This document shows, piece by piece, positions 1,656 to 33,287 of a stretch of DNA of 64,000 nt (within the stretch, counting starts at the first letter, position 1; every line of letters begins with the position of its first letter). The position numbers and the translations under genes were made by a program. The stretch covers positions 32,001-96,000 of IMG/VR virus record IMGVR_UViG_3300037067_003221. One strand, given 5' to 3'. The notes below the pieces were generated by a model that saw only the letters and a list, made by a program, of their open reading frames with translations, was not told where the DNA came from and made no database searches. The stretch comes from a virus (taxonomy: Duplodnaviria > Caudoviricetes).

Positions 1656-2468
1656 GTGATGATTAAAATGAGTCTCAAATCTCTCTCAGACGCGGCAGCC
1701 GTCTAAATTCAGCCGCGACCCAGCCGGAAGGGCGGGCGGGACAATCGTTACATTCCACCTACTCGGTATCTTAATTAAAACCCTCCCCACCGTCACAACC
1801 GGACCACCCCGCCCACCAGTCTATCTATACTAAGTATGTAATGTATGTATGTTAATATCATACTATATTGATTATATAATGTATGTATCTTAGTATGTTA
1901 TGACCCCGACAACACAATCAACCTGCATAGATAGAACAATCGTTACATTCTATCAACAGTGTAGTCAAATTGACTACAGTGTACGATTATGCAGGCTTTG
2001 CGGGTTATACTAATAGTAGCTATGATACTAGATTGTCTGGTTGTCGGGGTCGGGATACCTATTTCGCGCTTGACATTGCGAGATTGTCGCGTTTGTCAGT
2101 AATGATTGAATAATCGGATATCCCCTTACAATCAGAGACGCTGACATACTCGATACAACATGCACAGACAGAACAACCCCACCCTAGCAGTATAAGTGGT
2201 ACAATGCAAACAAGCAGCACAGTATGTATAACTGTACTATGTGCTATAATCGGCGCAATTGGTACGATTCCAAGGGTATAGGGATTATAGCAATTGCCCT
2301 ATTTGTAGCAATGGTAATAGTATCTCTGATTGTAATGATTGTCGGGGGCAACTAGGGACAGGGCAGCACAATCATTACAATCAGGCGACAGGGTGCATGA
2401 CCCCGATAATTAGAAGTATCGGTACAAAAGAAAAGGCCGCTATAAGCAGCCTTATTAGCACAATCATA

Positions 2469-2765
2469 CTACTCTGCACAATGAGAGTAATTGGGACAAT
2501 CAGCACAATCGATAGCATCGTGATCTTTGAAGCAATGCACAATATCGGCAGGCATGTTACAAGCGACACGCAAGGCATTACGTGCATCCTCGACACGATC
2601 ATTCAGATCGGCATATTTGGCATAAGCGTCACAATATGCGAAATTGCCACAACCCTTACAGAGCGAAAAGCCCTCACATCTGGCAACTGCGCAACCAGGG
2701 TGTTTTTCGTAATTACCCCTAGCAATGATAGCATCGGCATAAGCCTTAAATTCGGGTGTCATCAT
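2469..2765 (-). CDS. Cys-rich hypothetical protein
   Basis: ORF with GGAG RBS and several CxxC motifs. Confidence 0.55.
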   Translation of the reverse strand: MMTPEFKAYADAIIARGNYEKHPGCAVARCEGFSLCKGCGNFAYCDAYAKYADLNDRVEDARNALRVACNMPADIVHCFKDHDAIDCADCPNYSHCAE

Positions 2766-2963
2766 AATAAGCTCCCTATTCGTTATAATCCTAATTCATC
2801 GGACAAGGTGGTGCTAATACTGGAAAATGCGTCCCAATCGTTAGAATCGAGATAATCCATAAGACCGTCAACACCGAATGCTGCATTTGCCCCCTCTAAT
2901 AGCAATCGCAATTCCCTCTTAGTAAGGGGTATCGTTTTTTCGTTGATTGTCAATAAAATCATG

Positions 2964-3245
2964 TTAATCGTTATAACCGGCAAGACCGGAGTTAAGGTTG
3001 TTAATGGCAAAATCCAACATTCCGACATGCTGAGGATTTATCGTTTTATTCCGAATAATCGTTAAATTATCCACGGCTTGCATAATCGTTGCAACAATTA
3101 AATCAGGATTTTCCGCTTGTCTAAACAAATTGTTTAGACCCTGCAAAATCGGCATAACAGGAACCCCCTGTTTGGATGCCGTGAAAAGACGCGCACGCGC
3201 TACAATCGATTTTTCCAGCACCCTTGCGTACATCGGCATAATCGT
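2964..3245 (-). CDS. Hypothetical protein
   Basis: ORF with GAGG RBS upstream of MPMYARV; part of the minus-strand gene run. Confidence 0.5.
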   Translation of the reverse strand, partial: TIMPMYARVLEKSIVARARLFTASKQGVPVMPILQGLNNLFRQAENPDLIVATIMQAVDNLTIIRNKTINPQHVGMLDFAINNLNSGLAGYND

Positions 3246-3460
3246 TACCTCTTGTATAATTGGTTTCCGCAAGCAAAATAGAATTGCCTCTCAAGAGGGG
3301 TAGGCGCACGCATGGTAAAATGCGAATATCCGAAATTGAAGTTATGCGCGTAATAAACCGCGCTTTCCCTACAATCGCATATTTGCACTAAAACGCGATG
3401 ACCGTCACAATCCGAACTATTAGCAAATAAGGCAATCATGGCAATTCCCCTAAAAATGGA

Positions 3461-3643
3461 TTATTCCCAATAAACGCCACCCATAGCCCCGCGAACCTTT
3501 ACAAGCCCTAAATCCCGCAAAATCGATTCGCGCGCTTTTCTCTGCATTTTCGCGCGCTCTTTGGATTTTTTCTTACAACCATCACAAGTGTTTTGACCGT
3601 CAAGACCGTCAAATTCGGCACCACACTTACTACATACTTTCAT
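3461..3643 (-). CDS. Small zinc-ribbon protein
   Basis: CSKC...CDGC; GGAG RBS. Confidence 0.6.
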   Translation of the reverse strand: MKVCSKCGAEFDGLDGQNTCDGCKKKSKERAKMQRKARESILRDLGLVKVRGAMGGVYWE

Positions 3644-3674
3644 GGCAAACTCCCTAAAAGTGGTAGAATTGGAA

Positions 3675-3833
3675 TTATCGGTTAATCGTCACAACCGGCA
3701 CAACCCCCTCCACTATGACGATATGCCGCGCGCCCCGAATCGAGAGGGCAGAGAGGGCAAGCGCGCCTTGAATAGTGTCCGATTTTTCAGTATGAACTAA
3801 TTTCGAGAAAACGAAAAATTCTATTGTGAACAT
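3675..3833 (-). CDS. Small hypothetical protein (MFTIEFF..., 52 aa, below the ORF-track cutoff)
   Basis: Starts in the repeated promoter/RBS/ATG-TTC-AC cassette. Confidence 0.5.
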   Translation of the reverse strand: MFTIEFFVFSKLVHTEKSDTIQGALALSALSIRGARHIVIVEGVVPVVTINR

Positions 3834-3901
3834 GATTTTTCCCTTTCCTGATTGCTTGCCCCTTATATAGTCAATTATGCGCTATAGGGGCGTTTTGTCA
3901 A
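3826..3901 (-). promoter_or_regulatory. Repeated promoter + 5'UTR + RBS cassette (copy 1; other copies at 4910-4997, 5728-5810; partial at 7146-7215, 8300-8355, 10071-10180)
   Basis: Near-identical GTGAACATGATTTTTCCCTTTCC..GATTGCTTGCCCC..TGTCAAG blocks; on the minus strand TTGACA-N16-CATA(A/C)T followed by GGAAAGGG RBS and ATG. Confidence 0.85.
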
Positions 3902-4077
3902 GTAAATCGGGAATTTTCTAAAAGATTTTTCGGGATATTTCCATTTAGGGGGTGGATTTTAACGATTAGGCAAAATGGCAACTAGTCGAAAATCGTTACA
4001 ACCGACAATCTCGATACAAAGTGAAAAATGCCCTGATTGCTTCCCCTTCCAAAATAGTGGCAAGAGCGCAGGGCAGG

Positions 4078-4172
4078 GGCAAGCAACCGGCAAGCAACCG
4101 GCAAGCAACCGGCAAGCAACCGGCAAGCAACCGGCAAGCAACCGGCAAGCAACCGGCAAGCAACCGGCAAGC
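4078..4172. repeat. Tandem 11-bp repeat (GGCAAGCAACC) x8 plus a partial copy
   Basis: Read directly from the sequence; related GGCAAGC/GGCAGGG blocks at 4173-4262, 5958-6048 and 8367-8500. Confidence 0.95.
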
Positions 4173-4308
4173 GATTAGAGGGCAGGGCAGGGGCAAGCGA
4201 TTAGGCAAGATGATACGCAACCCGATAAAATGACGCAAGCGATTAGGCAAGCGATTAGAGGGCTAGAATTAAAAACTCCCCCATAGTAAGTAGAAAATGG
4301 TATGTTCC

Positions 4309-4416
4309 GATTGTAACAAGTATCGGGGTCAAGCCGGTTGTGGCGGGCGCGTCGATACGACCCCGACAATCGGAACAACCGGCGCAAAAGAAAACGCCGT
4401 TTGCGACCGGCGTTTT
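4309..4416. repeat. Dispersed CGGGGTC/GACCCCG inverted-repeat element plus minus-strand terminator
   Basis: GATTGT..ATCGGGGTC-N-GACCCCGACAATC..GCGCAAAAGAAAA followed by a GC hairpin. Confidence 0.85.
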
Positions 4417-4559
4417 CGGAATAAGTGTAATAAATGGTAAATCCGCTCCACAATGTTTCTAAGCCGGATTGACCCCGATTATTCATACAACCGGACCATC
4501 ACGAATAAGTGTCATAAGCGGTAAACTCCCGATTCAAGGGTTAATTGGAAAATTCGTTA

Positions 4560-4916
4560 CTACCTGCCCCCCTCGATTAGCGAATCTAGTTCGCTAGTCG
4601 GAATATCCTGATTGTAACGGCTCACACCACCCCAAAGGTGGATATGGGCCATACAATACGCATAACCGGCTTCTTCGGCAGTACCGGCTTTACTGGTCAA
4701 AGTGATACGAACGTCAGAACCGGAAAGAGCGTCACAAAACCTAATTCGGGCACGATACTTACCATTAGGTAATTCGTCAACACCGTCAAAACCCGTAGGA
4801 TTAGGAAAAACCGGATAAATTGGGCGGGTTGCTTCCCTTGCCCTGCGCGCCCCTAGCTTGCGTATCGCGCTGTTTGCAATCGATAATCTTTCCGTTTTCG
4901 TCAAGGTTGTGAACAT
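4560..4916 (-). CDS. AP2-domain-like DNA-binding protein
   Basis: TGFDGV..GKYRARI..GTAEEAGYAY resembles the AP2 fold motif. Confidence 0.6.
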   Translation of the reverse strand: MFTTLTKTERLSIANSAIRKLGARRAREATRPIYPVFPNPTGFDGVDELPNGKYRARIRFCDALSGSDVRITLTSKAGTAEEAGYAYCMAHIHLWGGVSRYNQDIPTSELDSLIEGGR

Positions 4917-5217
4917 GATTTTTCCCTTTCCCTTGCGTATTGCTTGCCCCTGTCTATATCAAGTATGCAGTATGAAAAGCAATTGTCAAGGAAAATTCCG
5001 AAAATTATTTTTTCAACCCGCAAGCAACTAGAAAACGGTTTATCGAAAATTGGGGATTATCATCTTTGAAATAATCCGCCAATTTTTCCGATAAATGCTC
5101 GATAACCAGTTTTTCCCCTACATCCGAAATTTTCAATTCGGCAAGGATAATCGCTGCAATCGCTTCATAATGTTTTTTCGACATGATTGTTTCAACCGTT
5201 AAAGGCGTTAAAATCGT

Positions 5218-5544
5218 TTAGTCAGTCCAGCGAACCACAAGAGGGGGTAGAATTGTAGGAATTGCGCCATTATTACGCAACCTATGGGTATCAAGGAATA
5301 ATCGGATATTTCCGATTGCATCGGTCATGCTGACAGTAGGGGCTTCACCCCCACCCCACACAATTTCCCCGTTACGAGTGGCATAATTGCTACCATCGGC
5401 GTATAACTCACAATCGACAATCAAGGTTTCGCCGGAATATACCTTAAAAGCGGAAAAATTGACATTTCGGGCGCGCGCCTTCTTAAATAGGATATGCCCT
5501 GTTCTCGCGCTAACCGTTACAGTCCCACTAATCAGAGTAAACAT
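5218..5544 (-). CDS. Hypothetical protein
   Basis: ORF with GGAG RBS. Confidence 0.55.
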   Translation of the reverse strand: MFTLISGTVTVSARTGHILFKKARARNVNFSAFKVYSGETLIVDCELYADGSNYATRNGEIVWGGGEAPTVSMTDAIGNIRLFLDTHRLRNNGAIPTILPPLVVRWTD

Positions 5545-5735: not shown

Positions 5736-6067
5736 GATTTTTCCCTTTCCTGATTGCTTGCCCCTGTCTATATCAAGTATGCAGTATGAAAAGCAATTGT
5801 CAAGGAAAAATAAATTTTCTAAAAGATTTTTCTAGGTTTTTCTAAAAGAGGGATATGATTTTAACGATTAGGTAAGATAGAAATTTTCAAAAATCGTTAC
5901 AATCGATAATCTCGCTACAAAGTGAAAAGTGGCATAGTTGCCCACCCTACTATATTAGGGGCAAGAGGGCAGGGCAAGCGATTAGAGGGCAGGGCAAGCG
6001 ATTAGAGGGCAGGGCAAGCAATCGGCAACCGGCAAGAGGGCAGGGCAATAGTCTGATTATACAGTTT

Positions 6068-6180
6068 ATCGGGGTCATGCAGGCGGGGGCGGAATAATCG
6101 TTACAACCGGCCATTCGAGGATGTGACCCCGAAAATCGTTACAATAGGCGCAAAGAGAAAGTCCGGCATAACCGGACTTA
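6068..6180. repeat. CGGGGTC/GACCCCG element plus terminator
   Basis: ATCGGGGTCATG...GACCCCGAAAATC...GCGCAAAGAGAAAGTCCGG-loop-CCGGACTT. Confidence 0.8.
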
Positions 6181-6189
6181 CCCATACAA

Positions 6190-7129: not shown

Positions 7130-7212
7130 GATAAAACCTCTTGCGTGATTGCTTGCCCCTGATATTCAAGTATAGCCCACAATCGGGGAAAGTCAAGGAA
7201 AATTCCAGAAAA

Positions 7213-8040: not shown

Positions 8041-8508
8041 AACCGAACTCCTTAATTTGGGTGGGGTGGAAGGGGCAAGGTCATAGCGATTATGCCGGTT
8101 TCCCTGCCGTATCCTCCCTAGCTACCCCCACTTGTAAGGGGAATAATCGGGTTGTCATTTAGAGGGAACCACCCCTCTTGTAGGCTAGGCTTTGGCCTCT
8201 TGCGATAGGGGTGGTTAATCCCCTATTAGTGGCACTTTTCCTAGTTACTCTGGCAACCCCGATTATTCTCCTCTTGTGTTTTGTTTTCGTTTTCGTTGCG
8301 ATATTCAAGTATAGCCCACAATCGGGGAAAGTCAAGGAAAATTCCGAAAATTATTTTGACGCAATAGCAAGCGATTAGAGGGCAAGCAATCCGGCAAGCA
8401 ATCACAAGCAACCGGCAAGGGGCAAGAGCGCAGGGCAAGCGATTAGAGGGCAGGGAGGGCAAGCAACCGGCAAGAGGGCAGGGGCAACCAGCAACCAGCA
8501 AGGGTCCG

Positions 8509-8613
8509 GTTGTAACGATCATCGGGGTCATGCCAGCGCGCCCCGCAACCGCTCGATACGACCCCGACAATCAGACTTACTAGCGCAAAAGAAAACCCCG
8601 GCAAAACCGGGGT
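8509..8613. repeat. CGGGGTC/GACCCCG element plus terminator
   Basis: ATCGGGGTCATG...GACCCCGACAATC...GCGCAAAAGAAAACCCCGG-CAAAA-CCGGGGT. Confidence 0.85.
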
Positions 8614-8629: not shown

Positions 8630-10033
8630 CTAGACGGCAACCTCCTCTCTAACGGTAAGACCGTTACGAGCGACAATCGGGATATAATAGTCAACAAGAT
8701 CAGAAGCGTTACAATCCTCCCAGAGCTTGCAAAGGAACTCCCACTTTTGGGTGGGCGACTTGGCAAGCAGTGTATTCCTTACAATCCGCCAATCGTTACG
8801 AGCGGCCCAATCGATAAAGAGAGATAAGCCCCTAATCCAGTTACAAATCTCCTTACCGTTACAAGTCCCATGATACAAACGAACCTCAAAGGTTGAATGA
8901 TAGACATAGGCGTTAATGTTCAACCATTTATAACGATCCTTACGATGGGCATAACAGGCCCAATCGGTAACGCCGAAAATATCGGACAATTCCGTAGTAT
9001 CCGCTTCACAGTAATGACGCGAACGACGGTCACTATCGACAAAATGCTTCCAAACGTCATACATGAAACGCATGGCACAATAGATAGACTTCATGCTTTC
9101 AGTATTTTCCTCACGCATATCAAAATGCACATGAAGCCCACAACTCCGATTTACGGTAAAACCCTTATCATCGGCAGCATTGCAAAATGCCATAATAGCG
9201 TCAAGACCCTTATCGCCGGAAAGGACGGAAGAAACGAACTCTTTGCCACTAATGCTACCATCGTCCTTTGCGCCAAAATAGAACTCATCCTCTAAATCGC
9301 AATAATCCTCACAAGAGGAAGTTTCGATTTCAACGCCAAATTTCCTATGACCGATACGATTGTAAGAATTGTTATCGTGCGAAAAACGGAGCGCGTCGAA
9401 ATTGTGGTCATTATGGTTACGACGATAACAAGAGCTACAAAGCCCCTCACCCTCATAATCGTCATTATCGTAAGTATCGCCACAACTATCGCAAACGAAA
9501 AATCTGTCACACCAGCACGAATCGCAATAATCGTTACCATCGGAACCCGTCATCGATTCGCGCGTCCATTCGTCACAACCCTCACACTTCACCCAACCGT
9601 TACGACTAGCACAACGGTCGCAATAGACATTATCGCCACAATTGTTCAAATCGTCACCACTGAACCAATCGTTGCAATGGTCACAGCTATGATAGTCGCT
9701 TGCTTCGGCACATTCGATACAGTTGGTATCGCCGTCACAATCGACACAATCGGAATGCCAAGTATGGCACGATTCACATTCCTTAAAATCGTTTTTATCG
9801 GCACAATCGAGACAGTACATAGTACCGTCACAATCGACAAGATCATCGTGATAGGTGCCGCAACCCTCACAAGCGGCATAGCCCTGAGAATCGGCACAAT
9901 CGGGACAGATAACCCGATTGTCAAGCATATCCGAAACCTCACAACCGGGTTTATCGGTTGTATCCCACCATTGCTCACAATCGGGACAATAGGCATCGGC
10001 GGGCGAGCGCGAAATATCCGTTTTAGATAGCAT
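8630..10033 (-). CDS. Putative amidoligase (COOH-NH2 ligase type) with long N-terminal zinc-ribbon repeats, paralog 1
   Basis: KFGVEIET, DGSISGKEFVS, CGLHVHFD, RY.WLN and TFEVRLYHGT motifs. Confidence 0.85.
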   Translation of the reverse strand: MLSKTDISRSPADAYCPDCEQWWDTTDKPGCEVSDMLDNRVICPDCADSQGYAACEGCGTYHDDLVDCDGTMYCLDCADKNDFKECESCHTWHSDCVDCDGDTNCIECAEASDYHSCDHCNDWFSGDDLNNCGDNVYCDRCASRNGWVKCEGCDEWTRESMTGSDGNDYCDSCWCDRFFVCDSCGDTYDNDDYEGEGLCSSCYRRNHNDHNFDALRFSHDNNSYNRIGHRKFGVEIETSSCEDYCDLEDEFYFGAKDDGSISGKEFVSSVLSGDKGLDAIMAFCNAADDKGFTVNRSCGLHVHFDMREENTESMKSIYCAMRFMYDVWKHFVDSDRRSRHYCEADTTELSDIFGVTDWACYAHRKDRYKWLNINAYVYHSTFEVRLYHGTCNGKEICNWIRGLSLFIDWAARNDWRIVRNTLLAKSPTQKWEFLCKLWEDCNASDLVDYYIPIVARNGLTVREEVAV

Positions 10034-10236
10034 AATCGCAACCCTCTTGCTATGGGTTATGGTTTCGCTAGATATTCAAGTATAGCATACTTTGCGGGAA
10101 AGTCAAGTAAAATTCTTTCCCTGCCCTGATAATCAAGTATAGCCCACAATTCGGGATTGTCAAGGAAAATTCCGAAAATAATTTATTCAATATACTATAC
10201 AAGCGCGGAATCGAGTAGGGTGGGGTTGTATCGAAT

Positions 10237-10303
10237 ATCGGGGTCAAGACGATTGTAGCGGTGTTGCCTGTCTGGACCCCGACAACCCTAACAACCCCGA
10301 TTA
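10237..10303. repeat. CGGGGTC/GACCCCG element
   Basis: ATCGGGGTCAAG...GGACCCCGACAAC. Confidence 0.75.
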
Positions 10304-10331: not shown

Positions 10332-10359
10332 TTGACAACCGGCTTTTCCGTGCTATAAT
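10332..10359 (+). promoter_or_regulatory. Plus-strand (counter-oriented) sigma70-type promoter
   Basis: TTGACA-N16-TATAAT with extended -10 TG. Confidence 0.8.
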
Positions 10360-10527: not shown

Positions 10528-11233
10528 AACAAACCTGCTGCCGACGAACGCGCGGCGTATTTCCCAGGTAAATAATTCGCAGATTGCGAACTCAGCGTGA
10601 CCCCGATAAATGGCCCGATAAAGAAATAAAATAGGGCGTTGGGATGAATGAATAATCACCCCACGCCCGATGTAGCAACCAGTCGGTCGAATCCTTAACC
10701 TGTTAGAGGCGGTTCACTTCCATGCCTAACTACTACATTTAACACGCTAACCAGTCAGACTGTTGCAAACTACTGCGCCCGGCATTCAGCGGGCAATATG
10801 AACGGGGAGGTTATGAAGCGGTTAATTCCGCGAACGGGGGTTAGATACAGCCACCGACAATATACATTATCGTTTGCGGCCAAACCATTTTTAAGAAGTC
10901 CCGTTGTTCCCTCTCGTTGTTCCTTTTCGTTGTTGCATTGTCTTAACATTTTAATTATACCTCATTTTCAGGCTTTGTCAAGTAAGTTGCGTCAGATTTT
11001 TTGGAATTGTCTCGCCATAGAATTTTGGACAAAACCACGCAGCATTTTGTCAGTAGATTTTTCGGTCGGGGTTGATCGGATTATCGGGGTAAAGCGATGG
11101 GCGAAAAGTTTTGGCACGATTCTGACCCCGACATTTGGCATAACTGTACATAAAAATACCCCGTCCATAGTCGGGGTATCAACACGCTTCTAAGCGCGTT
11201 TGAAATTGCCGTAAATCCTTACCACATAAGCAC

Positions 11234-17251: not shown

Positions 17252-17530
17252 TTAGTTTGTTAAGTACCGGGTTGTTAAATCCTCACGCAATTCCATAAGC
17301 ATTTCCGTATCTTTTAGAAGTTTCCATTCCATCGTTTCAATAGCGAAAACCGTAGCCCGTTGCTTTGCAGTTTGCAAATCGTTGGCGACGAAAATTCGAT
17401 CCCGTCCGTTGAATGTGGCAACCCATTGGTCGCTGCCCGGCAAATTCTTACGTAAAAGAATTTCATGCGGCTGAAAATTCCGCGAACCAGTTGCCACCCA
17501 TTTTGAATCAATTTGTTCCCATTCGAGCAT
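17252..17530 (-). CDS. Hypothetical protein (small MxxW family)
   Basis: MLEW...ANDLQTAKQRA. Confidence 0.6.
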   Translation of the reverse strand: MLEWEQIDSKWVATGSRNFQPHEILLRKNLPGSDQWVATFNGRDRIFVANDLQTAKQRATVFAIETMEWKLLKDTEMLMELREDLTTRYLTN

Positions 17531-17555
17531 TTTGTATTATTCCTTGTTATAAAAT

Positions 17556-17681
17556 GTAGCCGGGTGGGAGTCGAACCCACATAAGGCAACCGGCCTCTTT
17601 TGTGTTGGAGTCGAACCAACCCCCTCTTCCAGAGCTTCCCAGGGAATTGAACCCCGCACATTTTCCGCTAACGCCGACTAC
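17556..17681 (-). ncRNA. Putative tRNA-like ncRNA with three T-loop hairpins
   Basis: Closing stem GTAGTCGG/CCGGCTAC; hairpins GGG-TTCAATT-CCC, GTTGG-TTCGACT-CCAAC, GTGGG-TTCGACT-CCCAC; begins at the expected +1 of the promoter at 17688-17715. Confidence 0.7.
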
Positions 17682-17736
17682 ATTTTAATTATACCTCATG
17701 TTTTCTAAAAGTCAAATCAAGGTCCAATTATTCCTA

Positions 17737-17836
17737 TCGTCGGGGTCAAGTGAACGACCCGCCCGGCACTCATTCCGACCCCGACAATCAGACCTACCGG
17801 AAACAATAAAAGGCGGGGCTAATGATGACCCCGCCT
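17737..17836. repeat. CGGGGTC/GACCCCG element plus terminator
   Basis: GTCGGGGTCAAG...GACCCCGACAATC...AAAAGGCGGGG-loop-CCCCGCCT. Confidence 0.85.
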
Positions 17837-20628: not shown

Positions 20629-21570
20629 TCAGACTGTCAAGGCAACCGCCCGCTTAATCTTGGATTTTTTCGCAAAATACTGGAAAAGTTCCGGCCCCAC
20701 TATACGGCGGATATTGTGTTCCTTGTTCTCTCCGAACCAACTCTCCAAAGTGTTAAAGCCGGTACTTTCGACACCATCGACAAAACGTGCATGGGTCTTA
20801 ATCCAGTTGCAAATTTCCGGGGCGTGTAAACTTCCCTCATGCCCCCGCACTTCCACCGTGCCGTGATCGTTATAGGCCGACCAATTGATAAACTGGTAAC
20901 GGTCCTGATAGGTGGAAAATTCGCTAAAATCTGCGAATCGCAGGATTTCGCTGCGATCATAACGCATCCCACGGCTGTAAGAATTATTGTCGCGCGACGG
21001 GTGTACCAATTGCTGCCAGTAGGGGTAGGTCAAGTGGTAGGCATACGCCGTATTGCGGCATTGCTCGACTGATTTACCACGCATATCCAAATGGATATGC
21101 AAACCGCACTGCCTATCGACTTGAAACTTTCGCTTGTGGGCAAGTCGGCAGAATTTGCGGATTTCTTCAAGGCCCTTGTCGCCCTGCAAAATTGGGGAAA
21201 CAAATTCAAGGCCGTTAATGCTACCATGCTCATGCACCCCGAACGTGGTATGATTGCGTAGTGACGTATGGCCGGGACAGTTGGAGGTTTCAAGTTCCAC
21301 GCCAAATTTTCTCTGGCTACGGGTTTCGTCAAACGTATTTTCTCGAACATCCGGGGTTGACGTATCCCACAACCATTCATCTTGGCAATCGACGTAGCAA
21401 TTGTAGCATAATCGGCGGTTGCCGAAACGGTTCATATCGCTCTTATAGCCGACATAGCCGCAACCAGAGCAAGTAAAGAAACTTGCTTTGAAGCACTCTT
21501 GGCAGTAGTATCGGTGATAATGATGATACCGTGTCGTTCTGATCGTTTTGCCGCAATAATTGCAATTCAT
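20629..21570 (-). CDS. Putative amidoligase, paralog 2
   Basis: KFGVELET, GLEFVSPIL, CGLHIHLD, GTVEVR; N-terminal CxxC pairs. Confidence 0.85.
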   Translation of the reverse strand: MNCNYCGKTIRTTRYHHYHRYYCQECFKASFFTCSGCGYVGYKSDMNRFGNRRLCYNCYVDCQDEWLWDTSTPDVRENTFDETRSQRKFGVELETSNCPGHTSLRNHTTFGVHEHGSINGLEFVSPILQGDKGLEEIRKFCRLAHKRKFQVDRQCGLHIHLDMRGKSVEQCRNTAYAYHLTYPYWQQLVHPSRDNNSYSRGMRYDRSEILRFADFSEFSTYQDRYQFINWSAYNDHGTVEVRGHEGSLHAPEICNWIKTHARFVDGVESTGFNTLESWFGENKEHNIRRIVGPELFQYFAKKSKIKRAVALTV

Positions 21571-22620
21571 ATCAAGTTCCAGTGTGCAGGGTTAGTTAGT
21601 CACTACTACAACTATACACTATTTTCCAGGGTTGTCAAGTCATTTTCGGAGCAAAATAAACCAATGAGTAATGTTTTCCATCCCATACCCATACAGATTT
21701 ACCAGGGCTAATAACAGGTTTATTCGTAAATGGACCGCTAATAATCCCAGGGTGGTCGGGGTTTATGCCGATACCAATATAGTAGCTAGGGACTAATTCA
21801 CTTTTGGCCGTTGCTACTATATCTTCAATCGCCACTTGCAGGGCGGCATCCCGCTCACTTAGACTTGCTTGAATCAAGTCCCATAGGTTGCAATACTCGG
21901 CAGACCCTCCGAATGGCCCCATCGAATGCTGGTGTTTATACAGTAAGTGACGGGCGTATTCGAGCGTTAGTTTTGTTAAATCGTCCATTTACCCTCCAAT
22001 GTGGCAGTGACCGCACCAATACCAGAAATGTCCGTCACGACAGCTAAGAACCTTATAAATGGCACGGTCGCCACAATCGCCACACACCCGTTCAGGTGAG
22101 CAAGACGTTAGCACAACTGGCAGCCCTTCCATGTTCATTACGAATATCTCGGTAAAACCCGTTGCATTCATGCAATGGATTCTAACCTTTTCATCGGAGA
22201 AAGGCGGAAGCGTTACAATTAGGTCCATGATTATCTTGATAACCTCCGTAAGCAAATATACAGGTAGGCGGGGTCATACGGTTGCGGATTGCCTTCGATG
22301 TAAACCTGACCCCGGAATATGGTTCTGACCCGGCCAAACACGCCAGACCCTTTAACCAGCAAACCACTAATATCCTTACCCATCAGGATAACAGTTTTTA
22401 ACGATAGGCTACCCATATTGCCGTTCATACTCTTTGGTTTTCCAGCAAACTATCGTCACATATTGTGCCAATAGCCGACTATCATCAAGATTGTCTTTGC
22501 CGTGGAAGTGTTGAATATAGCAAGAGGCGGCATCGAATACTTCGGGAGTATCCGCGCACCACCACAAGCCATGAGCAATTTCGATTGCTTCTTTCAATAG
22601 TGCTTTATCGTATTTCATAG

Positions 22621-22939: not shown

Positions 22940-22991
22940 ATTTCAACTATACCATAGTTTAGGCGATTGTCAAGCAGAAAATTCAAGAATC

Positions 22992-23082
22992 GATTGTAGT
23001 GGTCATCGGGGTCAAGTGGCGATCCAACCGCGAAGATCGCTGGACCCCGACAATCAGAATAACCGTGCAAAAGAAAACGGCC
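22992..23082. repeat. CGGGGTC/GACCCCG element
   Basis: GATTGTAGTGGTCATCGGGGTC...GACCCCGACAATC...GTGCAAAAGAAAA. Confidence 0.85.
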
Positions 23083-23084
23083 AG

Positions 23085-23369
23085 TTAAAAGCCGTCAATA
23101 TCGACCGCATGGCGAAGATTGCTACTAAACCTACAATCGACACAATGAGAAGATAGGTCGCAGGCACGACAACTGCTACAAGCATCACAATTTACACATA
23201 TATCGCAATCAATACAACCAATGCAATCGTTGCAGTTGCGACAATCAATACAACTATTACAACCATAGCACTCAGTACAGTTGTGACAACTATCGCAGTC
23301 AGTACAATCTCTGCAATTGTAGCAATTGAGGCATCGAGTACAATTGACATTCCCGTGTTCGTCAGGCAT
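23085..23369 (-). CDS. Cys-repeat protein, DxxGNxNC family (copy 3)
   Basis: MPDEHGNVNC; GGAGG RBS. Confidence 0.75.
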   Translation of the reverse strand: MPDEHGNVNCTRCLNCYNCRDCTDCDSCHNCTECYGCNSCIDCRNCNDCIGCIDCDICVNCDACSSCRACDLSSHCVDCRFSSNLRHAVDIDGF

Positions 23370-27602: not shown

Positions 27603-27698
27603 GGTCTATACTCAATTATACACTATGTTTCACTGGTTGTCAAGTCAATCTTGTTGCCAATAAAAATGCCCCCTTGCGGGGGCTACTCTTGCGAAGCA

Positions 27699-27875
27699 TT
27701 AGCGGCACGAATCCACTTCGTCACATTCGTCACAATCTTCGTTTTCGTCATCCTGCATTTCACGGCGGGGGCGGGCAAGTCGGCTTGTGGAGTCATTGCC
27801 ACGCCGACGCTTGCTAATCCAGTACCTCACAAGGGGGAAGTCGCCAAGAAGCAATTTCAGCCCCTCCCACTTCAT
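27699..27875 (-). CDS. Detached C-terminal tail of amidoligase paralog 3 (58 aa)
   Basis: MKWEGLKLLLGDFPLVRYW aligns with QKWEFLCKLWED..LVDYY of paralog 1; ATGA overlap with the upstream ORF. Confidence 0.55.
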   Translation of the reverse strand: MKWEGLKLLLGDFPLVRYWISKRRRGNDSTSRLARPRREMQDDENEDCDECDEVDSCR

Positions 27876-28798
27876 GTTATTGCTCCCTCGAAATAGGCAT
27901 CAAGTTCGTCAAGGGTTTTGGTTGCGGCCCAGTCACAAAACCGGGTATGGATTTTAATCCAGTTGCAAATTTCCGCCTTGTCAATGCTCCCCTGATAGAG
28001 GCGGATTTCATACGTGCCGTGCCGGTTGTAGGCAGTCAGGTTGCACAACTCGTAACGATTTTGACTGTCGCAGTAGTCGCGCCAATCATGCGCCCGCTCG
28101 ACATTACCACGGGTCCGGGTTGACGGGCGGCAATAGGTGCAATTGTCGGCCCGAAACGGGTCAGCCAGCTTACGCCAAGCCTTATCCGTAAGCAGATAGG
28201 CATAGGCAATTGACTTCAAGGAATCGGCATTTTCGTCCCGCATATCCAAGTGGATATGCAAGCCGCAATCGCTATCAACCGACCAACCTTGTTCGCGGGC
28301 ATTGTCACAAAAACGCTCAATCTCGGCAAGCCCTTCATCCCCGTACAAAATGGGGGAGATAAATTCCATGCCACTAATGGAGCAATCATATTTCGCCCCA
28401 AACAGGGTGTTGTTTCGGAGGGTGCGATAACCGGCACAAGTGGCGGTTTCGATTTCCACGCCAAACTTTCGTTTGCTTCCGATAACCCCGTAGTTGGCAA
28501 TGGCAACATCCATCGGGGTGGGATTCCAAACATTCAGCCGGTCACGGCAGTTTCGGCAGATACGAACGACTTCGCCCGTGTCATGCTCAAAATTGTAACC
28601 GTCGAAATTTTCATTCAACGTGCCACATTCAGCACAGAGGAAATGCCGCTCTGCATAGCATCGCGGGCACCACCAATTTCTGTAGGAATCGGCAACGCAA
28701 TCGTTGAAAGACCCGCCGCAACAACGGCATCGTTGCGTTTCGGTTGTACGCCGGAGAGTTGGGCGTTCAAGTACCGGGGCATTGGTTAAAGCTGGCAT
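27872..28798 (-). CDS. Putative amidoligase, paralog 3
   Basis: KFGVEIET, DCSISGMEFISPIL, CGLHIHLD, GTYEIRLYQG. Confidence 0.85.
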   Translation of the reverse strand: MPALTNAPVLERPTLRRTTETQRCRCCGGSFNDCVADSYRNWWCPRCYAERHFLCAECGTLNENFDGYNFEHDTGEVVRICRNCRDRLNVWNPTPMDVAIANYGVIGSKRKFGVEIETATCAGYRTLRNNTLFGAKYDCSISGMEFISPILYGDEGLAEIERFCDNAREQGWSVDSDCGLHIHLDMRDENADSLKSIAYAYLLTDKAWRKLADPFRADNCTYCRPSTRTRGNVERAHDWRDYCDSQNRYELCNLTAYNRHGTYEIRLYQGSIDKAEICNWIKIHTRFCDWAATKTLDELDAYFEGAIT

Positions 28799-28920: not shown

Positions 28921-29826
28921 TTATTCGATCTTGGAATGTTCGCTTTCGCAAGCGTAGCTATCCCACGCATCCCGCCATTCGCCGTCGTAGTCACGCGCGG
29001 CCTCTTCCGATTTATCCTTCTTACTGGAATCCTTCTTGCTATCGTAATAGTACGTACTACCCGTAGCATCGTAATCGTCATGTTCGTAAGTGGTATAGCC
29101 CTTACGCTTCCAGTTATTCGTATTGGAACAACCGTACTTGCGGGTCCAATAATCCGGGGCAGCCGAGGTAAAGCCTGCCACCTTTTCCATTTCCACAACA
29201 CCCTCTTTGAGGGAGAACTTCATCGTTTCCCCTTCCGCGAGAGTCACAAAATTTTCGGTATGACCGACCACGCTTTCCAGGTGGGACCACGCCGAAGAAT
29301 AGTAATAAGTACCATTCTCGTCACAAGCGATAGACAGATCGCCATTGTGAACTTGCAGATAAAAGGATTCGCCGTCAAACCAGCTAACACCCCAATATCC
29401 GGTAATTTCGCCCCACGCCGTTTGATAATCGCCTTTCGCTTTGTTCAGCGTGTCGAATAACATTTGCGAATCGACCACATAGCCGGTCGGGGCGTCGATC
29501 ATACCGTTATGCGCCCCGATGATATTGCCGTATCGAAACGGGTGGCTGTTTTGACGGTTGACTTTGCCACGGGTGGCATAGCGAGTATGACCCGCGATAA
29601 ACCACGCCTTTTCGCGCTTTTCGTTGCCGTTCAAAGAGTCTCGCAACCAATTGGTCACGTTTTCCTTGCGTAACGCTTCCGATGGGTCGGCGGCAGTCTT
29701 AATCATCTTGCCGGTCGAATCGAAGAACCCGATGCTATCGGTTCCACGCTCACGATTCGCCCACGCCAACGCCTTGACGTTGCCAAGGTTCCAATTAGTT
29801 CCAATCGCTCCGAAAATTCCACACAT
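28921..29826 (-). CDS. Class II (Ntn) glutamine amidotransferase
   Basis: N-terminal MCGIFG, RGTDS, GHTRYAT, HPF, HNG and VDS motifs. Confidence 0.9.
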   Translation of the reverse strand: MCGIFGAIGTNWNLGNVKALAWANRERGTDSIGFFDSTGKMIKTAADPSEALRKENVTNWLRDSLNGNEKREKAWFIAGHTRYATRGKVNRQNSHPFRYGNIIGAHNGMIDAPTGYVVDSQMLFDTLNKAKGDYQTAWGEITGYWGVSWFDGESFYLQVHNGDLSIACDENGTYYYSSAWSHLESVVGHTENFVTLAEGETMKFSLKEGVVEMEKVAGFTSAAPDYWTRKYGCSNTNNWKRKGYTTYEHDDYDATGSTYYYDSKKDSSKKDKSEEAARDYDGEWRDAWDSYACESEHSKIE

Positions 29827-30249
29827 GAATTAGATTCCTTTTACAACCAGTACAGTGATGATTCGCTAAGTTTACTACAAACTCAGTCTTGCGAACTAGG
29901 GCGGGCTGTTGTGTCACTCGCCCCTCACTATATTAACTATACCACATTTTGAGCAAAAGTCAAATGATTTTTTCAAAATACCCCGTAGGTAGCACCACCA
30001 TTAGGTTCGTGGTGCATTCAACCAATCGGCACCGTATTCTTTCATTAACCGGCCACATAAGACCGTAATTTCATCGCAACGGGCAATAGGTAGGCCGGTC
30101 ATGTATTCAATGTCATAACCCTGTTGACCGTCAAGACAGTCAAGCAAGGCATAAACGGCTTGTCTCGCAAGGTCGGCATCGATAGGTTTGTTGCTCATAC
30201 TTTAACTATACCATGTTTTCGGCGAAAGTCAAGAGAAAAATTAAAAATC

Positions 30250-30352
30250 GATTGTGACGGTCATCGGGGTCGAGTGGTCGGAACTCACCGTGGACCCCGA
30301 CAATCGGATAATCTAGCGCAAAGAAAAGGCCGGGAGGGGCAGCTTCCCGGCC
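30250..30352. repeat. CGGGGTC/GACCCCG element plus terminator
   Basis: GATTGTGACGGTCATCGGGGTC...GACCCCGACAATC...GCGCAAAGAAAAGGCCGGGA-loop-TCCCGGCC. Confidence 0.85.
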
Positions 30353-30365
30353 AGCACACTAGGAA

Positions 30366-31625
30366 TTAGAATGGAGGGCTGTAAACATCGATAGGGTTGA
30401 TATGAAACGCATTGCCATTGCGACTGGCAACTTCGATGTAATACTCCCACAAGGCATTACCGATAATATCGTGCATCATTTCCATCTGCGCATCGGTATC
30501 GCCCATGAATTTTTCTCGCAAAGCATCAATACTGTACTGCTTTACGTAATCGATGAATCGTAAATGAATCATCACCCAGTTGTTAATCGCGGTTGCATCA
30601 AGACTTGCATCATGCAAACGTAACTCGACACTTCCATGAACCAAATAAGCCCGCCAATTGATGTACTCGAATCGATCACGTTCACCGACAAAATATTCCC
30701 AATCGGATTCGCTGTTAATACCAGCAACTTCGTCAGCTTCGTAATCCACCCGGCCACAGTAGCTATTGTGTGCCCTGTCCTCACTAACCAATTGCATCCA
30801 AAGGTTTTGAGTGAGCCGGTAGGCGTAGGCGATACTACGTAATGATTGCCAGTCCTCATTTTCAACGTCAAAGTGAGCATGATACCCACAATGGCGGCTT
30901 ACCCGCCACCGCATTCGGTTGGCCGTGGCGCAAAAGTCGATAACTTCGTCAAGGCCCTGATCGCCGTACAAAATAGGCGAAACAAATTCTTTCCCCTCGA
31001 TTGAGCAATCCGATTTACACTCCCAAATGGTGCCGCCACGGATACTCCGATGGTTTTCGCAGCGGGAGGTTTCCAATTCCACGCCAAAGCGGCGGGTTGA
31101 ACCGATTCGATCATAGGTGGGATTCTCGCAGACAAAATCACTCATGCCCCATTCAGGTTGGTTGACAGAGCATTCGTCGCAATACCCATCTTCGTTAAGA
31201 TCGTCACGATGGTAAGTGTTGCCGCAACCGTGGCAATTGGTAAAATTGTCGCTGTAGCAATCGGCACAATAAAATTGGTCACGATGCGTATAGCTATTGT
31301 GTCGGCGAACCGCCTCCCCACACTCCGCACAAGTCACAAAGTTCCGGCTGTAGCAGCGGGGGCAATAATCCCCGTCGGTAGTATGACGCATTGCCGTGCG
31401 ATTCGTTTCGGCACCGCAATCATCACAGCAATAGTGAAGATAATCGTAACATGCTTCGCAATAATGCCGCCCGTTTGCCGATACAATGTCCTCACAATAC
31501 ACAGGCTGAGCGCAACCCGCACAAGGTACAAAGTAGGCAGCCGCGCACTCCGGGCAGTAACTATGCCCGTTGTAGTCTAATGCGTCCCGCCGATCAAAAT
31601 TGCCCGAACAATGATAACAAATCAT
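30366..31625 (-). CDS. Putative amidoligase with zinc-ribbon repeats, paralog 4
   Basis: RFGVELET, DCSIEGKEFVSPIL, CGYHAHFD, GSVELR. Confidence 0.85.
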   Translation of the reverse strand: MICYHCSGNFDRRDALDYNGHSYCPECAAAYFVPCAGCAQPVYCEDIVSANGRHYCEACYDYLHYCCDDCGAETNRTAMRHTTDGDYCPRCYSRNFVTCAECGEAVRRHNSYTHRDQFYCADCYSDNFTNCHGCGNTYHRDDLNEDGYCDECSVNQPEWGMSDFVCENPTYDRIGSTRRFGVELETSRCENHRSIRGGTIWECKSDCSIEGKEFVSPILYGDQGLDEVIDFCATANRMRWRVSRHCGYHAHFDVENEDWQSLRSIAYAYRLTQNLWMQLVSEDRAHNSYCGRVDYEADEVAGINSESDWEYFVGERDRFEYINWRAYLVHGSVELRLHDASLDATAINNWVMIHLRFIDYVKQYSIDALREKFMGDTDAQMEMMHDIIGNALWEYYIEVASRNGNAFHINPIDVYSPPF

Positions 31626-32485
31626 TTCCTAGTATCCTGCAAGTGAAAATTGAACTCTAAACAATTATACCATATTTTCGGCGGTTGTCAAATAAAATTT
31701 GCCCATTTTTACTTGATGCACACCCCGCCATTGAGAAGCGGCGGGCCTCCAAAAAATCGGCACATTCATTACATCCAGAGTTTCCCATAACATTTTCAAC
31801 CGCTCGCCCTGTCGCCCCCACTCGTTATTGTGGAAAACGATATGCACAGTTTCATTCTTCAAAGCCGAATGATCTTGCCGGGGCAACGATATGCTAAAAT
31901 TATCGATGTAGTTGTAGATTTCCACCACAACCGGCAATAAAATACGAGGAATAATCGCGCGGGTGTAGTGCTGCCGAATGGCAGTGCCCGAAAAATCCTG
32001 AATGTCGTTAAAGTCGAAAATCTTCATGTAATCACCACTACATCGACTAACCGCTCACCCTCTTCGAGTGGGATTTCGTCGTAATGCTCCGAGAGGATAC
32101 CACGGGAATAAACGGAATCGGTCGATTCGATACGCCCGGCCAGCCGATATTCATGGTCAGGCGCAGGCAAAACGATAACCGGGTTGCCGGGGATGGACTG
32201 CAAAGCTGCAATCAACTGATCTTTACGCATCGATTTCCACCTGTTCGAGAATGATAATGTCAAAATGCAAGTCACTAAGGAACTTATATTTGACAACCGC
32301 TTCACCGTCTTGCAACCGAACTTCGATACTATCGTACTCTTCATACTGATAGTTCAAGCTGTTGCGGATAATCTGCTTGATGCCAGCCGAATTAACAGCA
32401 TAGCCGTCAAGTATCTGATCGCTATTGTGGTCGCGTACAATGAAAATCATAATCAATTATACCTCATGTTTCCCGGTTTGTCAAA

Positions 32486-32567
32486 TCGGCCTGCAAGGAA
32501 TCGAACCTTGTGTGGGACTAGCCCAACAGATTTACAGTCTGCCGCCCGACCATCGAGCATCAAGCCG
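32486..32567 (-). tRNA. tRNA-Tyr(GTA), atypical (C1-G72, A8)
   Basis: GCAGA-CTGTAAA-TCTGT anticodon arm, long variable arm, CAAGG-TTCGATT-CCTTG T-arm. Confidence 0.8.
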
Positions 32568-32726
32568 TCTTATTTTGTTCTTTCGCCTGCGCTTTGTAAT
32601 AGGCCATGCGTTGCCGATAAGCCGACTTGCAACAATTACGCTTTCGATGTAGTGGGCGTAAGACACTGTTGCAAGTGGGGCAGCGCAGCACACCGCCAAC
32701 AAATTTGCCCATCGGGTACTTGCCCA

Positions 32727-32966
32727 TCATTTACTGTCCAGTTTGTTTTTGTATTCGTCGCGTTCGCGGCGGGTGGCTTCCAAGTCAAAGGCGATATACT
32801 TCATATCGAGCCGCAATTGACCCAGAGCATCCTGTACAAGCGAAAGTATTCGCGTTCGGCGTTCGCTTGCTTCAATCAACTTTGCAACCAATGGGGTCAC
32901 TTTCGCGGCGTATTGCGGCGGCAGTGTTTCGGCAACGGCGGCAAGTTCAATCAATGCTTCTTTCAT
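32727..32966 (-). CDS. Small coiled-coil protein resembling a conserved planctomycete protein
   Basis: RILSLVQDALGQLRLDMKYIAFDLEATRRERD motif (recognised from memory, not searched). Confidence 0.6.
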   Translation of the reverse strand: MKEALIELAAVAETLPPQYAAKVTPLVAKLIEASERRTRILSLVQDALGQLRLDMKYIAFDLEATRRERDEYKNKLDSK

Positions 32967-33036
32967 GGTTTTCCCTTTCATTACAATCTTACCACATTTT
33001 GCCCGGTTGTCAAGTGGAATTTTCAGATTTCACTTT

Positions 33037-33076
33037 ATCGGGGTCAATCGGCTGTGGGATAGTCTCGACCCCGACA
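33037..33076. repeat. CGGGGTC/GACCCCG element (last full copy)
   Basis: ATCGGGGTCAA...GACCCCGACA. Confidence 0.75.
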
Positions 33077-33287
33077 GCTAGCACAATAATACTGCGCACG
33101 CGCGCCCGCGATAGCAACTTCTGTGCCAAACCTTATAGACCCCGACACATAGAATAATCATTTTAATCAATTCGACGGCCCAGAAAAATTGGAATAGTCG
33201 TTACAGATTGGCCGTTATAAATACACCCCACCCATCGAATCGATACAATCGGATATAGAAAAATTCAGAAAATTTTTAGAATAGCCC

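What the first reader, a model, noticed from the sequence alone, without database searches (positions are those of the whole stretch)
1902..33150. Dispersed CGGGGTC/GACCCCG inverted-repeat element that punctuates transcription units only in the left 33 kb
Seen: at least ten copies (about 2336, 4309, 6068, 8509, 10237, 11064, 17737, 22992, 30250, 33037; an opposite-polarity pair at 1902/2051). Consensus GATTGT-N-ATCGGGGTC-[variable 25-55 nt]-GACCCCGACAATC-N10-GCGCAAAAGAAAA-[GC hairpin]. In the direction of transcription most copies sit directly after a rho-independent terminator and before the next promoter. Arms are conserved and the interior differs in every copy. No full copy occurs after 33.1 kb. 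Established: T4-type phages have promoter/stem-loop (PeSL) cassettes that mediate shuffling of accessory genes, and integron attC sites are folded substrates with variable loops. Inference: boundaries of exchangeable gene modules, or binding/cruciform sites used during DNA entry or early transcription.
Basis: partly seen in the sequence, partly recalled or inferred. Interest (0 to 1): 0.8.

Follow-up and report, generated by a model that had tools for sequence, protein, structure and literature searches.

The report
Repeated operator in phage early-gene cassettes
An uncultured 147-kb groundwater phage, and its relatives, place one fixed inverted-repeat signal between the terminator of one early gene block and the promoter of the next; it is most likely a docking site for a small phage DNA-binding protein, and in related phages it is also a point where gene blocks have been swapped.

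Summary
Eleven CGGGGTC...GACCCCG inverted repeats lie in window 2.3-33.1 kb. Ten carry the flanking GATTGT/ACAATC modules. None lies anywhere else in the 147-kb genome.

On the transcribed (-) strand each copy is the middle of a cassette: terminator hairpin, TTTTCTTTTGCGC, N10, GATTGT-CGGGGTC, variable interior, GACCCCG-AYRAYC-NNN-ACAAYC, then a sigma70-type promoter.

The same cassette occurs in four other large viral contigs and about 50 metagenome contigs (42-60% GC). It is absent from 185,579 bacterial and archaeal species genomes.

Four features point to a sequence-specific site on double-stranded DNA rather than an RNA hairpin:
- The arms keep their sequence, while terminator stems and interiors differ in every copy.
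- Interior lengths are quantised (20-23, 27-32, 36-43 nt).
- The distance to the -35 box is quantised (about 33 or 43 nt).
- Arm units also occur in tandem and in unequal numbers on the two sides.

A single-copy 118-aa AP2-fold protein (window 4560-4916) is encoded inside the repeat cluster in all five genomes. It is my candidate binder; this is inference only.

One recombinant junction in a related lineage lies exactly in an arm, which resembles the PeSL cassettes of T4-type phages. No integrase is present, so the element is not attC-like.

This scan has noted similar terminator-palindrome-promoter cassettes in other uncultured phages.

The parts
4307..4381 (-). Full inverted-repeat (IR) element: GGTTGT-TCC-GATTGT-CGGGGTC, 28-nt interior, GACCCCG-ATACTT-GTT-ACAATC
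6055..6145 (-). Full IR element with a 48-nt interior that itself holds GGTTGTAACGATTAT
8506..8572 (-). Full IR element with a 30-nt interior. It is orthologous in position to the G003 copy just after the 467-aa amidoligase; arms are kept and the interior is unrelated
10224..10298 (-). IR element with GGTTGT/ACAACC outer modules (both arms changed alike) and no terminator upstream
17726..17789 (-). Full IR element with a 29-nt interior; the promoter -35 lies 25 nt downstream
22992..23064 (-). Full IR element with a 29-nt interior; the -35 lies 33 nt downstream
30250..30314 (-). Full IR element with a 21-nt interior; the -35 lies 32 nt downstream
33024..33079 (-). IR element with weak outer modules and a 21-nt interior; the -35 lies 25 nt downstream; no terminator upstream
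2328..2411 (-). Degenerate copy: right core is GCCCCCG, and the GATTGT-AAT-GATTGT modules lie inside the interior
11070..11137 (-). Degenerate copy: right core is TACCCCG
22269..22314 (.). Exact core pair without flanking modules, inside an ORF; possibly chance
1902..1919 (-). Lone arm GATTGTGTTGT-CGGGGTC at the end of the - strand gene block
2039..2051 (+). Lone arm GGTTGT-CGGGGTC facing the other way
4382..4416 (-). Intrinsic terminator plus TTTTCTTTTGCGC tail, 10 nt before the left arm. Other terminators followed by an IR: 2433-2453, 6159-6179, 8595-8613, 11155-11180, 17811-17836, 23076-23096, 30316-30352; spacing to the arm is 9-10 nt only in the canonical copies
30205..30232 (-). Sigma70-type promoter (TTGACT-16-TATAGT with TG) downstream of an IR. 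Others in the same position: 2284-2311, 10136-10163, 10954-10981, 17688-17715, 22946-22973, 32986-33013. Further away: 8308-8335, 5776-5803
4560..4916 (-). Single-copy 118-aa AP2-fold protein gene; candidate binder of the arms (inferred)
8350..8500 (-). Array of TTGC(C/T) short repeats between the IR and the next promoter. Similar arrays at about 5960-6045 and 4150-4290

Best explanation
The element is a sequence-specific protein-binding site (operator) on double-stranded DNA. It forms the middle of a conserved terminator-operator-promoter cassette that separates host-RNA-polymerase (early) transcription units. Each arm is built from short modules: a CGGGGTC core plus GATTGT sub-repeats at 9-nt spacing, which together make an 18-nt unit. 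The two arms face each other across a spacer whose sequence is free but whose length is restricted to steps of about 8.5-9 bp. The promoter-proximal arm sits at a fixed distance from the -35 box. I infer that the arms are read by the phage's own small AP2-fold protein (window 4560-4916), an early gene product encoded inside the repeat cluster. Once made, it would bind all cassettes together. It could then tune the adjacent promoters (repression or class-I-type activation; the sign is unknown), or it could block read-through from the upstream unit. Because the cassette is the only conserved DNA among fast-changing early genes, it also serves passively as a crossover point for gene shuffling. 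Shown: anatomy, distribution, quantised spacing, sequence invariance, the AP2 fold, co-occurrence, and one junction in an arm. Inferred: that a protein binds, that it is the AP2 protein, and the regulatory outcome.
For: Sequence is fixed, not just pairing. Both cores are invariant in 9 of 11 window copies and in G001-G004 (44-56% GC). Interiors differ in every copy and so do the terminator stems of the same cassettes. Right-arm variants are plain transitions, and A.C mismatches are as common as G.U at position 5. The architecture recurs in 52 oriented copies from many contigs. Interior lengths are quantised, with empty gaps at 24-26 and 33-35 nt; 0 of 2000 jittered nulls reach the observed periodicity. 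The distance from GACCCCG to the -35 box falls at 30-34 nt (17 copies), 42-44 (13), 51-52 (4), 60 (2), 71 (2) and 25 (2), and nowhere between. Arm units occur as tandem direct arrays and in unequal numbers on the two sides; a lone arm sits 21 nt before a -35 box; modules are permuted in copy 2328-2411. The element is phage-specific: all 13 hits in 596 Gb of prokaryote genomes are chance hits in high-GC coding DNA. The candidate binder has an AP2 fold: pLDDT 81, and the top Foldseek hit is the AtERF1-DNA complex 1gcc (probability 0.98, rmsd 2.2 A). AtERF1 is the top hit of the profile search of PDB sequences, though weakly (E 0.14). Distant profile hits are bona fide Pfam AP2 and HNH_3-AP2 proteins. 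Invariant Arg55/57/59/70 lie on the predicted beta-strands. In IMG/VR the protein search finds 4 contigs. Three of them are exactly the 3 contigs found by the DNA pattern, and the fourth also has an IR cluster next to the gene. The gene is single-copy in G000. AP2-homologue genes on contigs L131, L132 and L134 carry a single core in or beside their own promoter.
Against: No binding data exist. The co-occurrence of protein and site is confounded by common descent, since all five genomes belong to one phage group and also share amidoligases. Only about 11 of 29 strong - strand promoters in the region have an IR, so it is not a general promoter part. The 8.5-9 bp step is not the 10.5 bp B-DNA repeat expected for simple same-face binding. 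Interiors are slightly more self-complementary than shuffles (mean z -0.52, p 0.002; 15% below -2), which a hairpin model would predict. As single strands the elements fold well (-15 to -34 kcal/mol). G000's own AP2 gene promoter has no core beside it.
Confidence: 0.45

Rival explanations
1. The primary role is recombinational. The cassettes are PeSL-like mobile regulatory modules whose conserved arms promote exchange, insertion and loss of early genes, by short-homology recombination or by an unidentified site-specific nuclease guided by the AP2 protein.
For: The L095/L048 junction lies exactly within GATTGTCGGGGTCA. Three of five distinct breakpoints in that lineage lie within 36 nt of a core and one lies at the promoter/gene edge. 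In L048 versus L025, two genes plus a cassette are replaced by one gene, with the right breakpoint at the cassette start. The region is hypervariable compared with G003. A wetland relative lacks 432 bp immediately behind a cassette promoter. The nearest relatives of the AP2 family include HNH-AP2 endonucleases. PeSLs do this in T4-type phages (PMC2839356, PMC4122927).
Against: The sample is small (5 breakpoints; 3 of 5 within 40 nt against 25% expected). One breakpoint is a plain gene junction. The complete genome has no integrase, resolvase or HNH_3. Recombination alone does not explain the quantised interior length or the fixed distance to the -35 box. Any conserved repeat attracts crossovers without being selected for it.
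Confidence: 0.2
2. The element acts as a hairpin in RNA (in read-through transcripts) or in single-stranded DNA. Possible roles are a processing or stability site, a back-up terminator or insulator, or a structure read during injection or replication.
For: All copies fold as hairpins, z -1.7 to -4. A subset of interiors extends the stem perfectly (L091, L092, L035), and interiors overall show a weak excess of self-complementarity. Some arm changes are matched on both sides (GATTCT/AGAATC in L075, GGTTGT/ACAACC in copy 10224-10298).
Against: The element lies behind strong intrinsic terminators and ahead of the next promoter, so it falls outside the main transcripts. The arms are fixed in sequence, whereas the true RNA hairpins in the same cassettes (the terminators) vary freely. 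A.C mismatches are tolerated. A hairpin gives no reason for a quantised loop length. Numbers of arm units differ between the two sides. No Rfam family matches. Matched changes on both arms are equally expected for a symmetric protein site.
Confidence: 0.15
3. The arms are sites for a host factor (a nucleoid protein or global regulator) that the phage recruits or titrates, or they are pause signals for stepwise DNA entry.
For: The position upstream of host-type promoters is typical of host activator sites, and the proximal core is centred about 36 or 46 nt upstream of the -35 box. The copies are restricted to the early region.
Against: The IR is absent from 185,579 species genomes. It is conserved across phages of 42-60% GC, which probably have different hosts. 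A conserved phage-encoded DNA-binding protein is available.
Confidence: 0.1
4. It is a selfish miniature transposable element (MITE-like) that spread through the early region.
For: The copies are short and dispersed, have terminal inverted repeats, and lie between genes.
Against: Interiors are unrelated between copies, no target-site duplications were seen, and the genome has no transposase or recombinase. Register with the terminator and promoter is fixed in many phages. Position is kept between G000 and G003 while the interior has turned over completely.
Confidence: 0.05

Closest known systems
PeSL (promoter-early stem-loop) cassettes of T4-type phages (Arbiol et al. 2010, PMC2839356; Comeau et al. 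2014, PMC4122927)
   Same: Both are small composite terminator/promoter modules with near-consensus sigma70 promoters. Both are repeated between small, variable early genes in hyperplastic regions and are associated with indels and replacements between relatives. A minimal IR-less version also exists here at window 27615-27683.
   Different: Here a separate, sequence-invariant inverted repeat of two 13-22-nt arms with a 21-48-nt free spacer sits between the terminator and the promoter. A PeSL has only the terminator stem-loop. The phage group is different: no DNA or AP2-protein match to any cultured phage. Mini-circle formation was not tested.
Dispersed repeats of mycobacteriophages: Cluster K ESAS (inverted 17-bp repeats with a variable spacer), L5 stoperators, Cluster O 17-bp repeats (PMC4351075). 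ESAS and stoperators are cited from my own knowledge.
   Same: These are phage-specific short motifs, dispersed in intergenic DNA in one orientation relative to transcription, and read by sequence. Stoperators are bound by the phage repressor.
   Different: The motif differs, the position differs (ESAS lie before start codons; stoperators are single asymmetric sites), and the phages differ. No AP2 protein is involved.
AP2/ERF DNA-binding domains: AtERF1 with the GCC box (PDB 1gcc) and HNH-AP2 homing endonucleases of phages and cyanobacteria
   Same: The candidate binder has the three-stranded sheet plus helix fold and conserved arginines on the sheet. The known targets are G/C-rich (the GCC box). 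From memory, Magnani et al. 2004 reported binding of a cyanobacterial HNH-AP2 domain to poly(dG)/poly(dC), which would resemble the G4/C4 core.
   Different: It is a stand-alone 118-aa protein with extra N- and C-terminal helices. It falls below Pfam's AP2 threshold in 8 of 10 members, has no nuclease domain, and its DNA target has not been tested.
Integron attC sites
   Same: Both have imperfect inverted arms around a variable centre and lie between gene cassettes.
   Different: There is no integrase, each cassette has its own promoter and terminator, and the arm consensus differs.

Membership tests
PeSL cassettes | Composite of a stem-loop terminator directly followed by an early sigma70-type promoter | tested here: met
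   Terminator and promoter flank 8 of the copies, but an extra IR lies between them.
PeSL cassettes | Located in hyperplastic regions, next to genes that differ between close relatives | tested here: met
   About 20 of 90 ORFs are shared with G003. Breakpoints at cassettes in L025/L048/L095/L099.
PeSL cassettes | Occur in T4-type myoviruses and have the PeSL consensus | tested here: not met
   No DNA or AP2-protein match to any cultured phage; one amidoligase found only remote (<30% identity) matches in unrelated phages. The consensus is different.
PeSL cassettes | Recombination between tandem copies yields mini-circles and deletions | not testable with these tools
   Only weak contig joints were seen.
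Integron attC | An IntI tyrosine recombinase is encoded nearby | tested here: not met
   PF00589 is absent from the complete genome.
Integron attC | Promoterless cassettes driven by one Pc promoter | tested here: not met
   24 strong promoters lie in 26 kb.
Intrinsic terminator | G+C-rich stem, short loop, U-tract directly after the stem | tested here: not met
   The loop is 21-48 nt and no T-run follows the right arm.
Known RNA families (Rfam 15) | Match to a covariance model | tested here: not met
   Only tRNAs and spurious weak hits were found in window 1-36000.
AP2/ERF domain (candidate binder) | Three-stranded beta-sheet packed on a helix; similarity to Pfam PF00847 | tested here: met
   Fold match to 1gcc. 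Pfam AP2 matches 2 of 10 members, best E 5e-4. Distant homologues match AP2 at E as low as 1e-56.
AP2/ERF domain (candidate binder) | Binds the IR arms | not testable with these tools
   Only co-occurrence is available.
MITE | Copies share their interior, target-site duplications are present, and a cognate transposase exists | tested here: not met

The most novel reading that the evidence does not exclude
An uncultured clade of large phages runs its early genes as plug-in cassettes. Each is bounded by a lattice-built operator (18-nt units, about 9-bp steps) that is read by a stand-alone AP2-type transcription factor. That factor would be the first phage AP2 protein acting as a regulator rather than as the targeting domain of a homing nuclease. 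The same sites would double as the preferred crossover points that shuffle early genes between phages.
Probability: 0.25. Interest if true: 0.7.

Novelty: new variant of a known kind. Interest (0 to 1): 0.55.

Why it matters
Regulation of early genes in uncultured large phages is almost unknown. This is a compact, testable pair: a 13-22-bp arm and a 118-aa protein, shared by phages from groundwater, sediment, soil, wetland and landfill. If the pairing holds, it gives a portable operator/regulator module. It also gives a rule for recognising early transcription units in this group, and a concrete case in which a regulatory site also sets where phage genomes recombine. The quantised 8.5-9 bp spacing is an unusual structural constraint that a protein-DNA structure could explain.

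Tried and rejected
- Y RNA idea. A Ro60 gene lies at window 35000-36715. I dropped the idea because the IRs lie behind terminators, have no Rfam match, and the Y RNAs of this phage were placed elsewhere by earlier notes.
- GATTGT excess as extra binding sites. GATTGT occurs 73 times on the - strand against 25 on the + strand. This is mostly Asp-Cys codons in Cys-rich proteins.
- Strand bias of lone CGGGGTC. These are mostly Gly-Val-type codons inside ORFs.
- Close relatives by megablast or by a single protein: none found.
- RNA evidence: no RNA holder was listed.
- Read laying gave only short, low-depth contigs. The joints 5941->4149 and 7212->6148 are cassette-to-cassette but may be repeat artefacts.
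- Variant core GCGTGGTCA, seen beside a distant AP2 homologue on contig L133. The IMG/VR scan gave 37 unrelated chance hits, so protein/site co-variation rests on one case.
- Other contigs of distant AP2 homologues were about 1 kb and mostly uninformative.
- Helical phasing at 10.5 bp: the best period is 8.5-9.5 bp instead.
Full report
**Source and setting.** The window is bases 32001-96000 of a single 147,030-bp viral contig. It has 45% GC and is rated 100% complete. Earlier notes describe it as an uncultured groundwater phage. The best DNA holder is a groundwater metagenome, and partial holders come from landfill and wetland samples. Genes from window about 2.2 kb to beyond 64 kb run on the - strand, so I read everything below on that strand.

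**Observation.** CGGGGTC occurs 41 times against 6.5 expected. The 13-mer GACCCCGACAATC (up to 2 mismatches) occurs 23 times against 1.5.
- Nine exact CGGGGTC...GACCCCG pairs and two one-mismatch pairs lie between window 2343 and 33073.
- Allowing one mismatch, the whole genome has no flanked copy outside genome 34.3-65.1 kb. The reversed-sequence control gives one hit.
- The pair at 22269-22314 lacks flanking modules and lies in an ORF, so I treat it as doubtful.

**Anatomy.** In the direction of transcription a canonical copy reads as follows:
1. a terminator hairpin whose stem differs in every copy
2. TTTTCTTTTGCGC
3. 9-10 nt
4. (GRTTGT-NNN-)GATTGT-CGGGGTC-A
5. an interior of 21-48 nt
6. 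T-GACCCCG-AYRAYC-NNN-ACAAYC
7. an A/T-rich stretch, often with a GGAAT box
8. TTGACA/T, then a 16-18-nt spacer (often ending in TG), then the -10 hexamer TATAnT

Eight copies follow a clear terminator. Only one other clear - strand terminator in the region (27668-27683) lacks an IR; it is followed directly by a promoter. By contrast, only about 11 of 29 strong - strand promoters have an IR upstream. The region is promoter-dense: 24 of the genome's 32 strong - strand promoter matches lie in window 7-33 kb, and only 3 matches lie on the + strand genome-wide. This marks it as the host-polymerase (early) region.

**Relatives.** An exact-pattern scan found three IMG/VR contigs:
- G001: 124.7 kb, 56% GC
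- G002: 67 kb, 54% GC
- G003: 105 kb, 45% GC

It also found 83 metagenome stretches. About 51 of these have the full flanking architecture; the rest are chance hits in high-GC coding DNA. The same pattern in 596 Gb of prokaryote genomes gave 13 hits, all chance hits in coding DNA. The element is therefore specific to phages.

G003 is collinear with G000 at about 68% nucleotide identity in shared genes, but only about 20 of 90 ORFs of the IR region are shared. The IR directly after the 467-aa amidoligase is kept in both phages, with the same arms and unrelated interiors.

**Hairpin or protein site.** As single strands the copies fold at -15 to -34 kcal/mol, with z from -1.7 to -4. Interiors are weakly self-complementary (mean z -0.52, p 0.002), and a minority extend the stem perfectly. 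Several points argue against a structure-only signal:
- *Sequence conservation.* The arms keep their sequence across phages of 42-60% GC. The terminator stems of the same cassettes, which are true RNA hairpins, differ in every copy.
- *Arm variants.* Right-arm variants are simple transitions. At position 5, A.C mismatches (12) outnumber G.U (7).
- *Interior length.* It is quantised at 20-23, 27-32 and 36-43 nt, with none at 24-26 or 33-35. The best period is about 8.5 nt, and 0 of 2000 jittered nulls match it. A loop has no reason to be quantised.
- *Distance to the promoter.* The distance from GACCCCG to the -35 box is 30-34 nt (17 copies) or 42-44 (13), with minor classes at 25, 51-52, 60 and 71 and nothing between. 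The longer classes carry an extra 18-nt unit.
- *Unit arrangement.* Units (GACCCCG-ACAAYC-N5, 18 nt) occur as tandem direct arrays and in unequal numbers on the two sides. One lone arm lies 21 nt before a -35 box. In copy 2328-2411 the GATTGT modules lie inside the core pair.
- *Transcript position.* The element lies behind a terminator and ahead of the promoter, so it is outside the main transcripts.
- *Cruciform.* Cruciform extrusion in duplex DNA is disfavoured by such long spacers (established knowledge).

The step of 8.5-9.5 bp is not the 10.5-bp helical repeat. It equals the sub-repeat spacing within the arms (GATTGT-NNN), which suggests tiling by a protein with a footprint of about 9 bp. 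That is inference.

**Candidate reader.** I clustered all ORFs of the element-bearing loci. The most widespread small protein is a 118-aa family, found in 10 loci that include G000-G003.
- It has an AP2-like signature: GVD..GKYRARIRF.DALSG.D.R.TL....AE.A.YAY..AH..LWG.
- The profile's best PDB hits are AtERF1 (E 0.14, weak).
- Pfam AP2 matches 2 of 10 members (best E 5e-4).
- The AlphaFold model (pLDDT 81) has three strands and a helix. Its top Foldseek hit is the AtERF1/GCC-box complex 1gcc (probability 0.98, TM 0.65 on the target, rmsd 2.2 A), with other AP2 domains and the lambda Int arm-binding domain lower in the list.
- The profile search of 1.8 billion proteins found 69 hits. The distant ones are bona fide multi-AP2 proteins (Pfam E as low as 1e-56) and HNH_3-AP2 endonucleases.
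- Invariant arginines (55, 57, 59, 70) lie on the sheet.
- A protein-based scan of IMG/VR returned four contigs. Three are exactly the contigs found by the DNA pattern. The fourth (G004, 175 kb) has an IR cluster at 121-134 kb beside its AP2 gene.
- The gene is single-copy in G000 and lies inside the IR cluster in all five genomes.
- Three more distant homologue genes carry one core in or next to their own promoter. One very distant homologue sits beside the same cassette layout with a different arm core, GCGTGGTCA. That is only a single case.

All of this is co-occurrence within one phage group, not proof of binding.

**Recombination.** In the L025/L048/L095/L099 lineage (90-99% identity), L095 is identical to one L048 cassette up to GATTGTCGGGGTCA and to a different cassette from that point on. 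Of five distinct breakpoints, three lie within 36 nt of a core, one at the promoter/gene edge, and one at a plain gene junction. A wetland relative of G000 lacks 432 bp directly behind the promoter of cassette 17726-17789. G000 has no tyrosine or serine recombinase and no HNH_3 domain. Any exchange is therefore by homology or by an unknown activity. This matches what PeSL cassettes do in T4-type phages (PMC2839356, PMC4122927). It does not explain the spacing constraints.

**Verdict.** The finding is real and is more than part of a terminator. It is best read as a phage-specific operator embedded in PeSL-like terminator/promoter cassettes. Its probable reader is a stand-alone AP2-fold protein, and it has a secondary role as a crossover point. 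It is a new variant of a known kind. This scan has noted comparable terminator-palindrome-promoter cassettes with other motifs in other uncultured large phages, so the general layout is recurrent. The AP2 link, the lattice spacing and the wide environmental spread are what is new here.

Noticed in passing
window 8350-8500, 5960-6045, 4150-4290 (- strand): Dense arrays of TTGC(C/T)-type short repeats (CTTGCCCTGCCCTCTAATCG; TTGCTGGTTG) fill the space between three IRs and the next promoter. TTGCTGGTTG also occurs in the cassettes of metagenome contigs L048 and L025. Function unknown.
   Followed up: partly
window 8308-8335, 7169-7196, 10136-10163; also 5776-5803 and 4962-4989: Near-identical copies of whole promoter regions (ATTTTCGGAATTTTCC-TTGAC...). 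The promoters themselves form repeat families.
   Followed up: partly
window 10332-10359 (+): A perfect 12/12 sigma70-type promoter with TG points rightwards, antisense to the gene block, right beside IR 10224-10298.
   Followed up: no
window 27615-27683 (-): A minimal terminator-plus-promoter cassette without any IR. This is the closest thing here to a classic PeSL.
   Followed up: partly
window 1420-2050: The convergent end of the two gene blocks holds an AT-rich stretch of ACATAC-type repeats between two lone outward-facing arms, plus a long hairpin that gives spurious miRNA hits (1420-1655). G003 has a similar AT-rich stretch after its last IR.
   Followed up: no
window 8630-10033, 20629-21570, 27872-28798, 30366-31625: Four amidoligase (PF12224) paralogues; at least the 467-aa copy (8630-10033) has a Cys-rich N-terminus. 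A GATase-like gene (28921-29826) and several CxxC/DC-repeat proteins lie nearby. This family is the commonest cargo of IR cassettes in metagenome contigs.
   Followed up: partly
window 17255-17686: A wetland relative (run X3) replaces these 432 bp with 24 nt. The 432 bp hold the tRNA-like RNA between the cassette promoter and rtcB.
   Followed up: no
L133 (contig of distant AP2 homologue P0022): It has the same terminator-TTTTTGCGC-N9-IR layout but with arms GGTTTGCGTGGTCA/TGACCACGCAAACC. This may be a case of protein and site changing together.
   Followed up: partly
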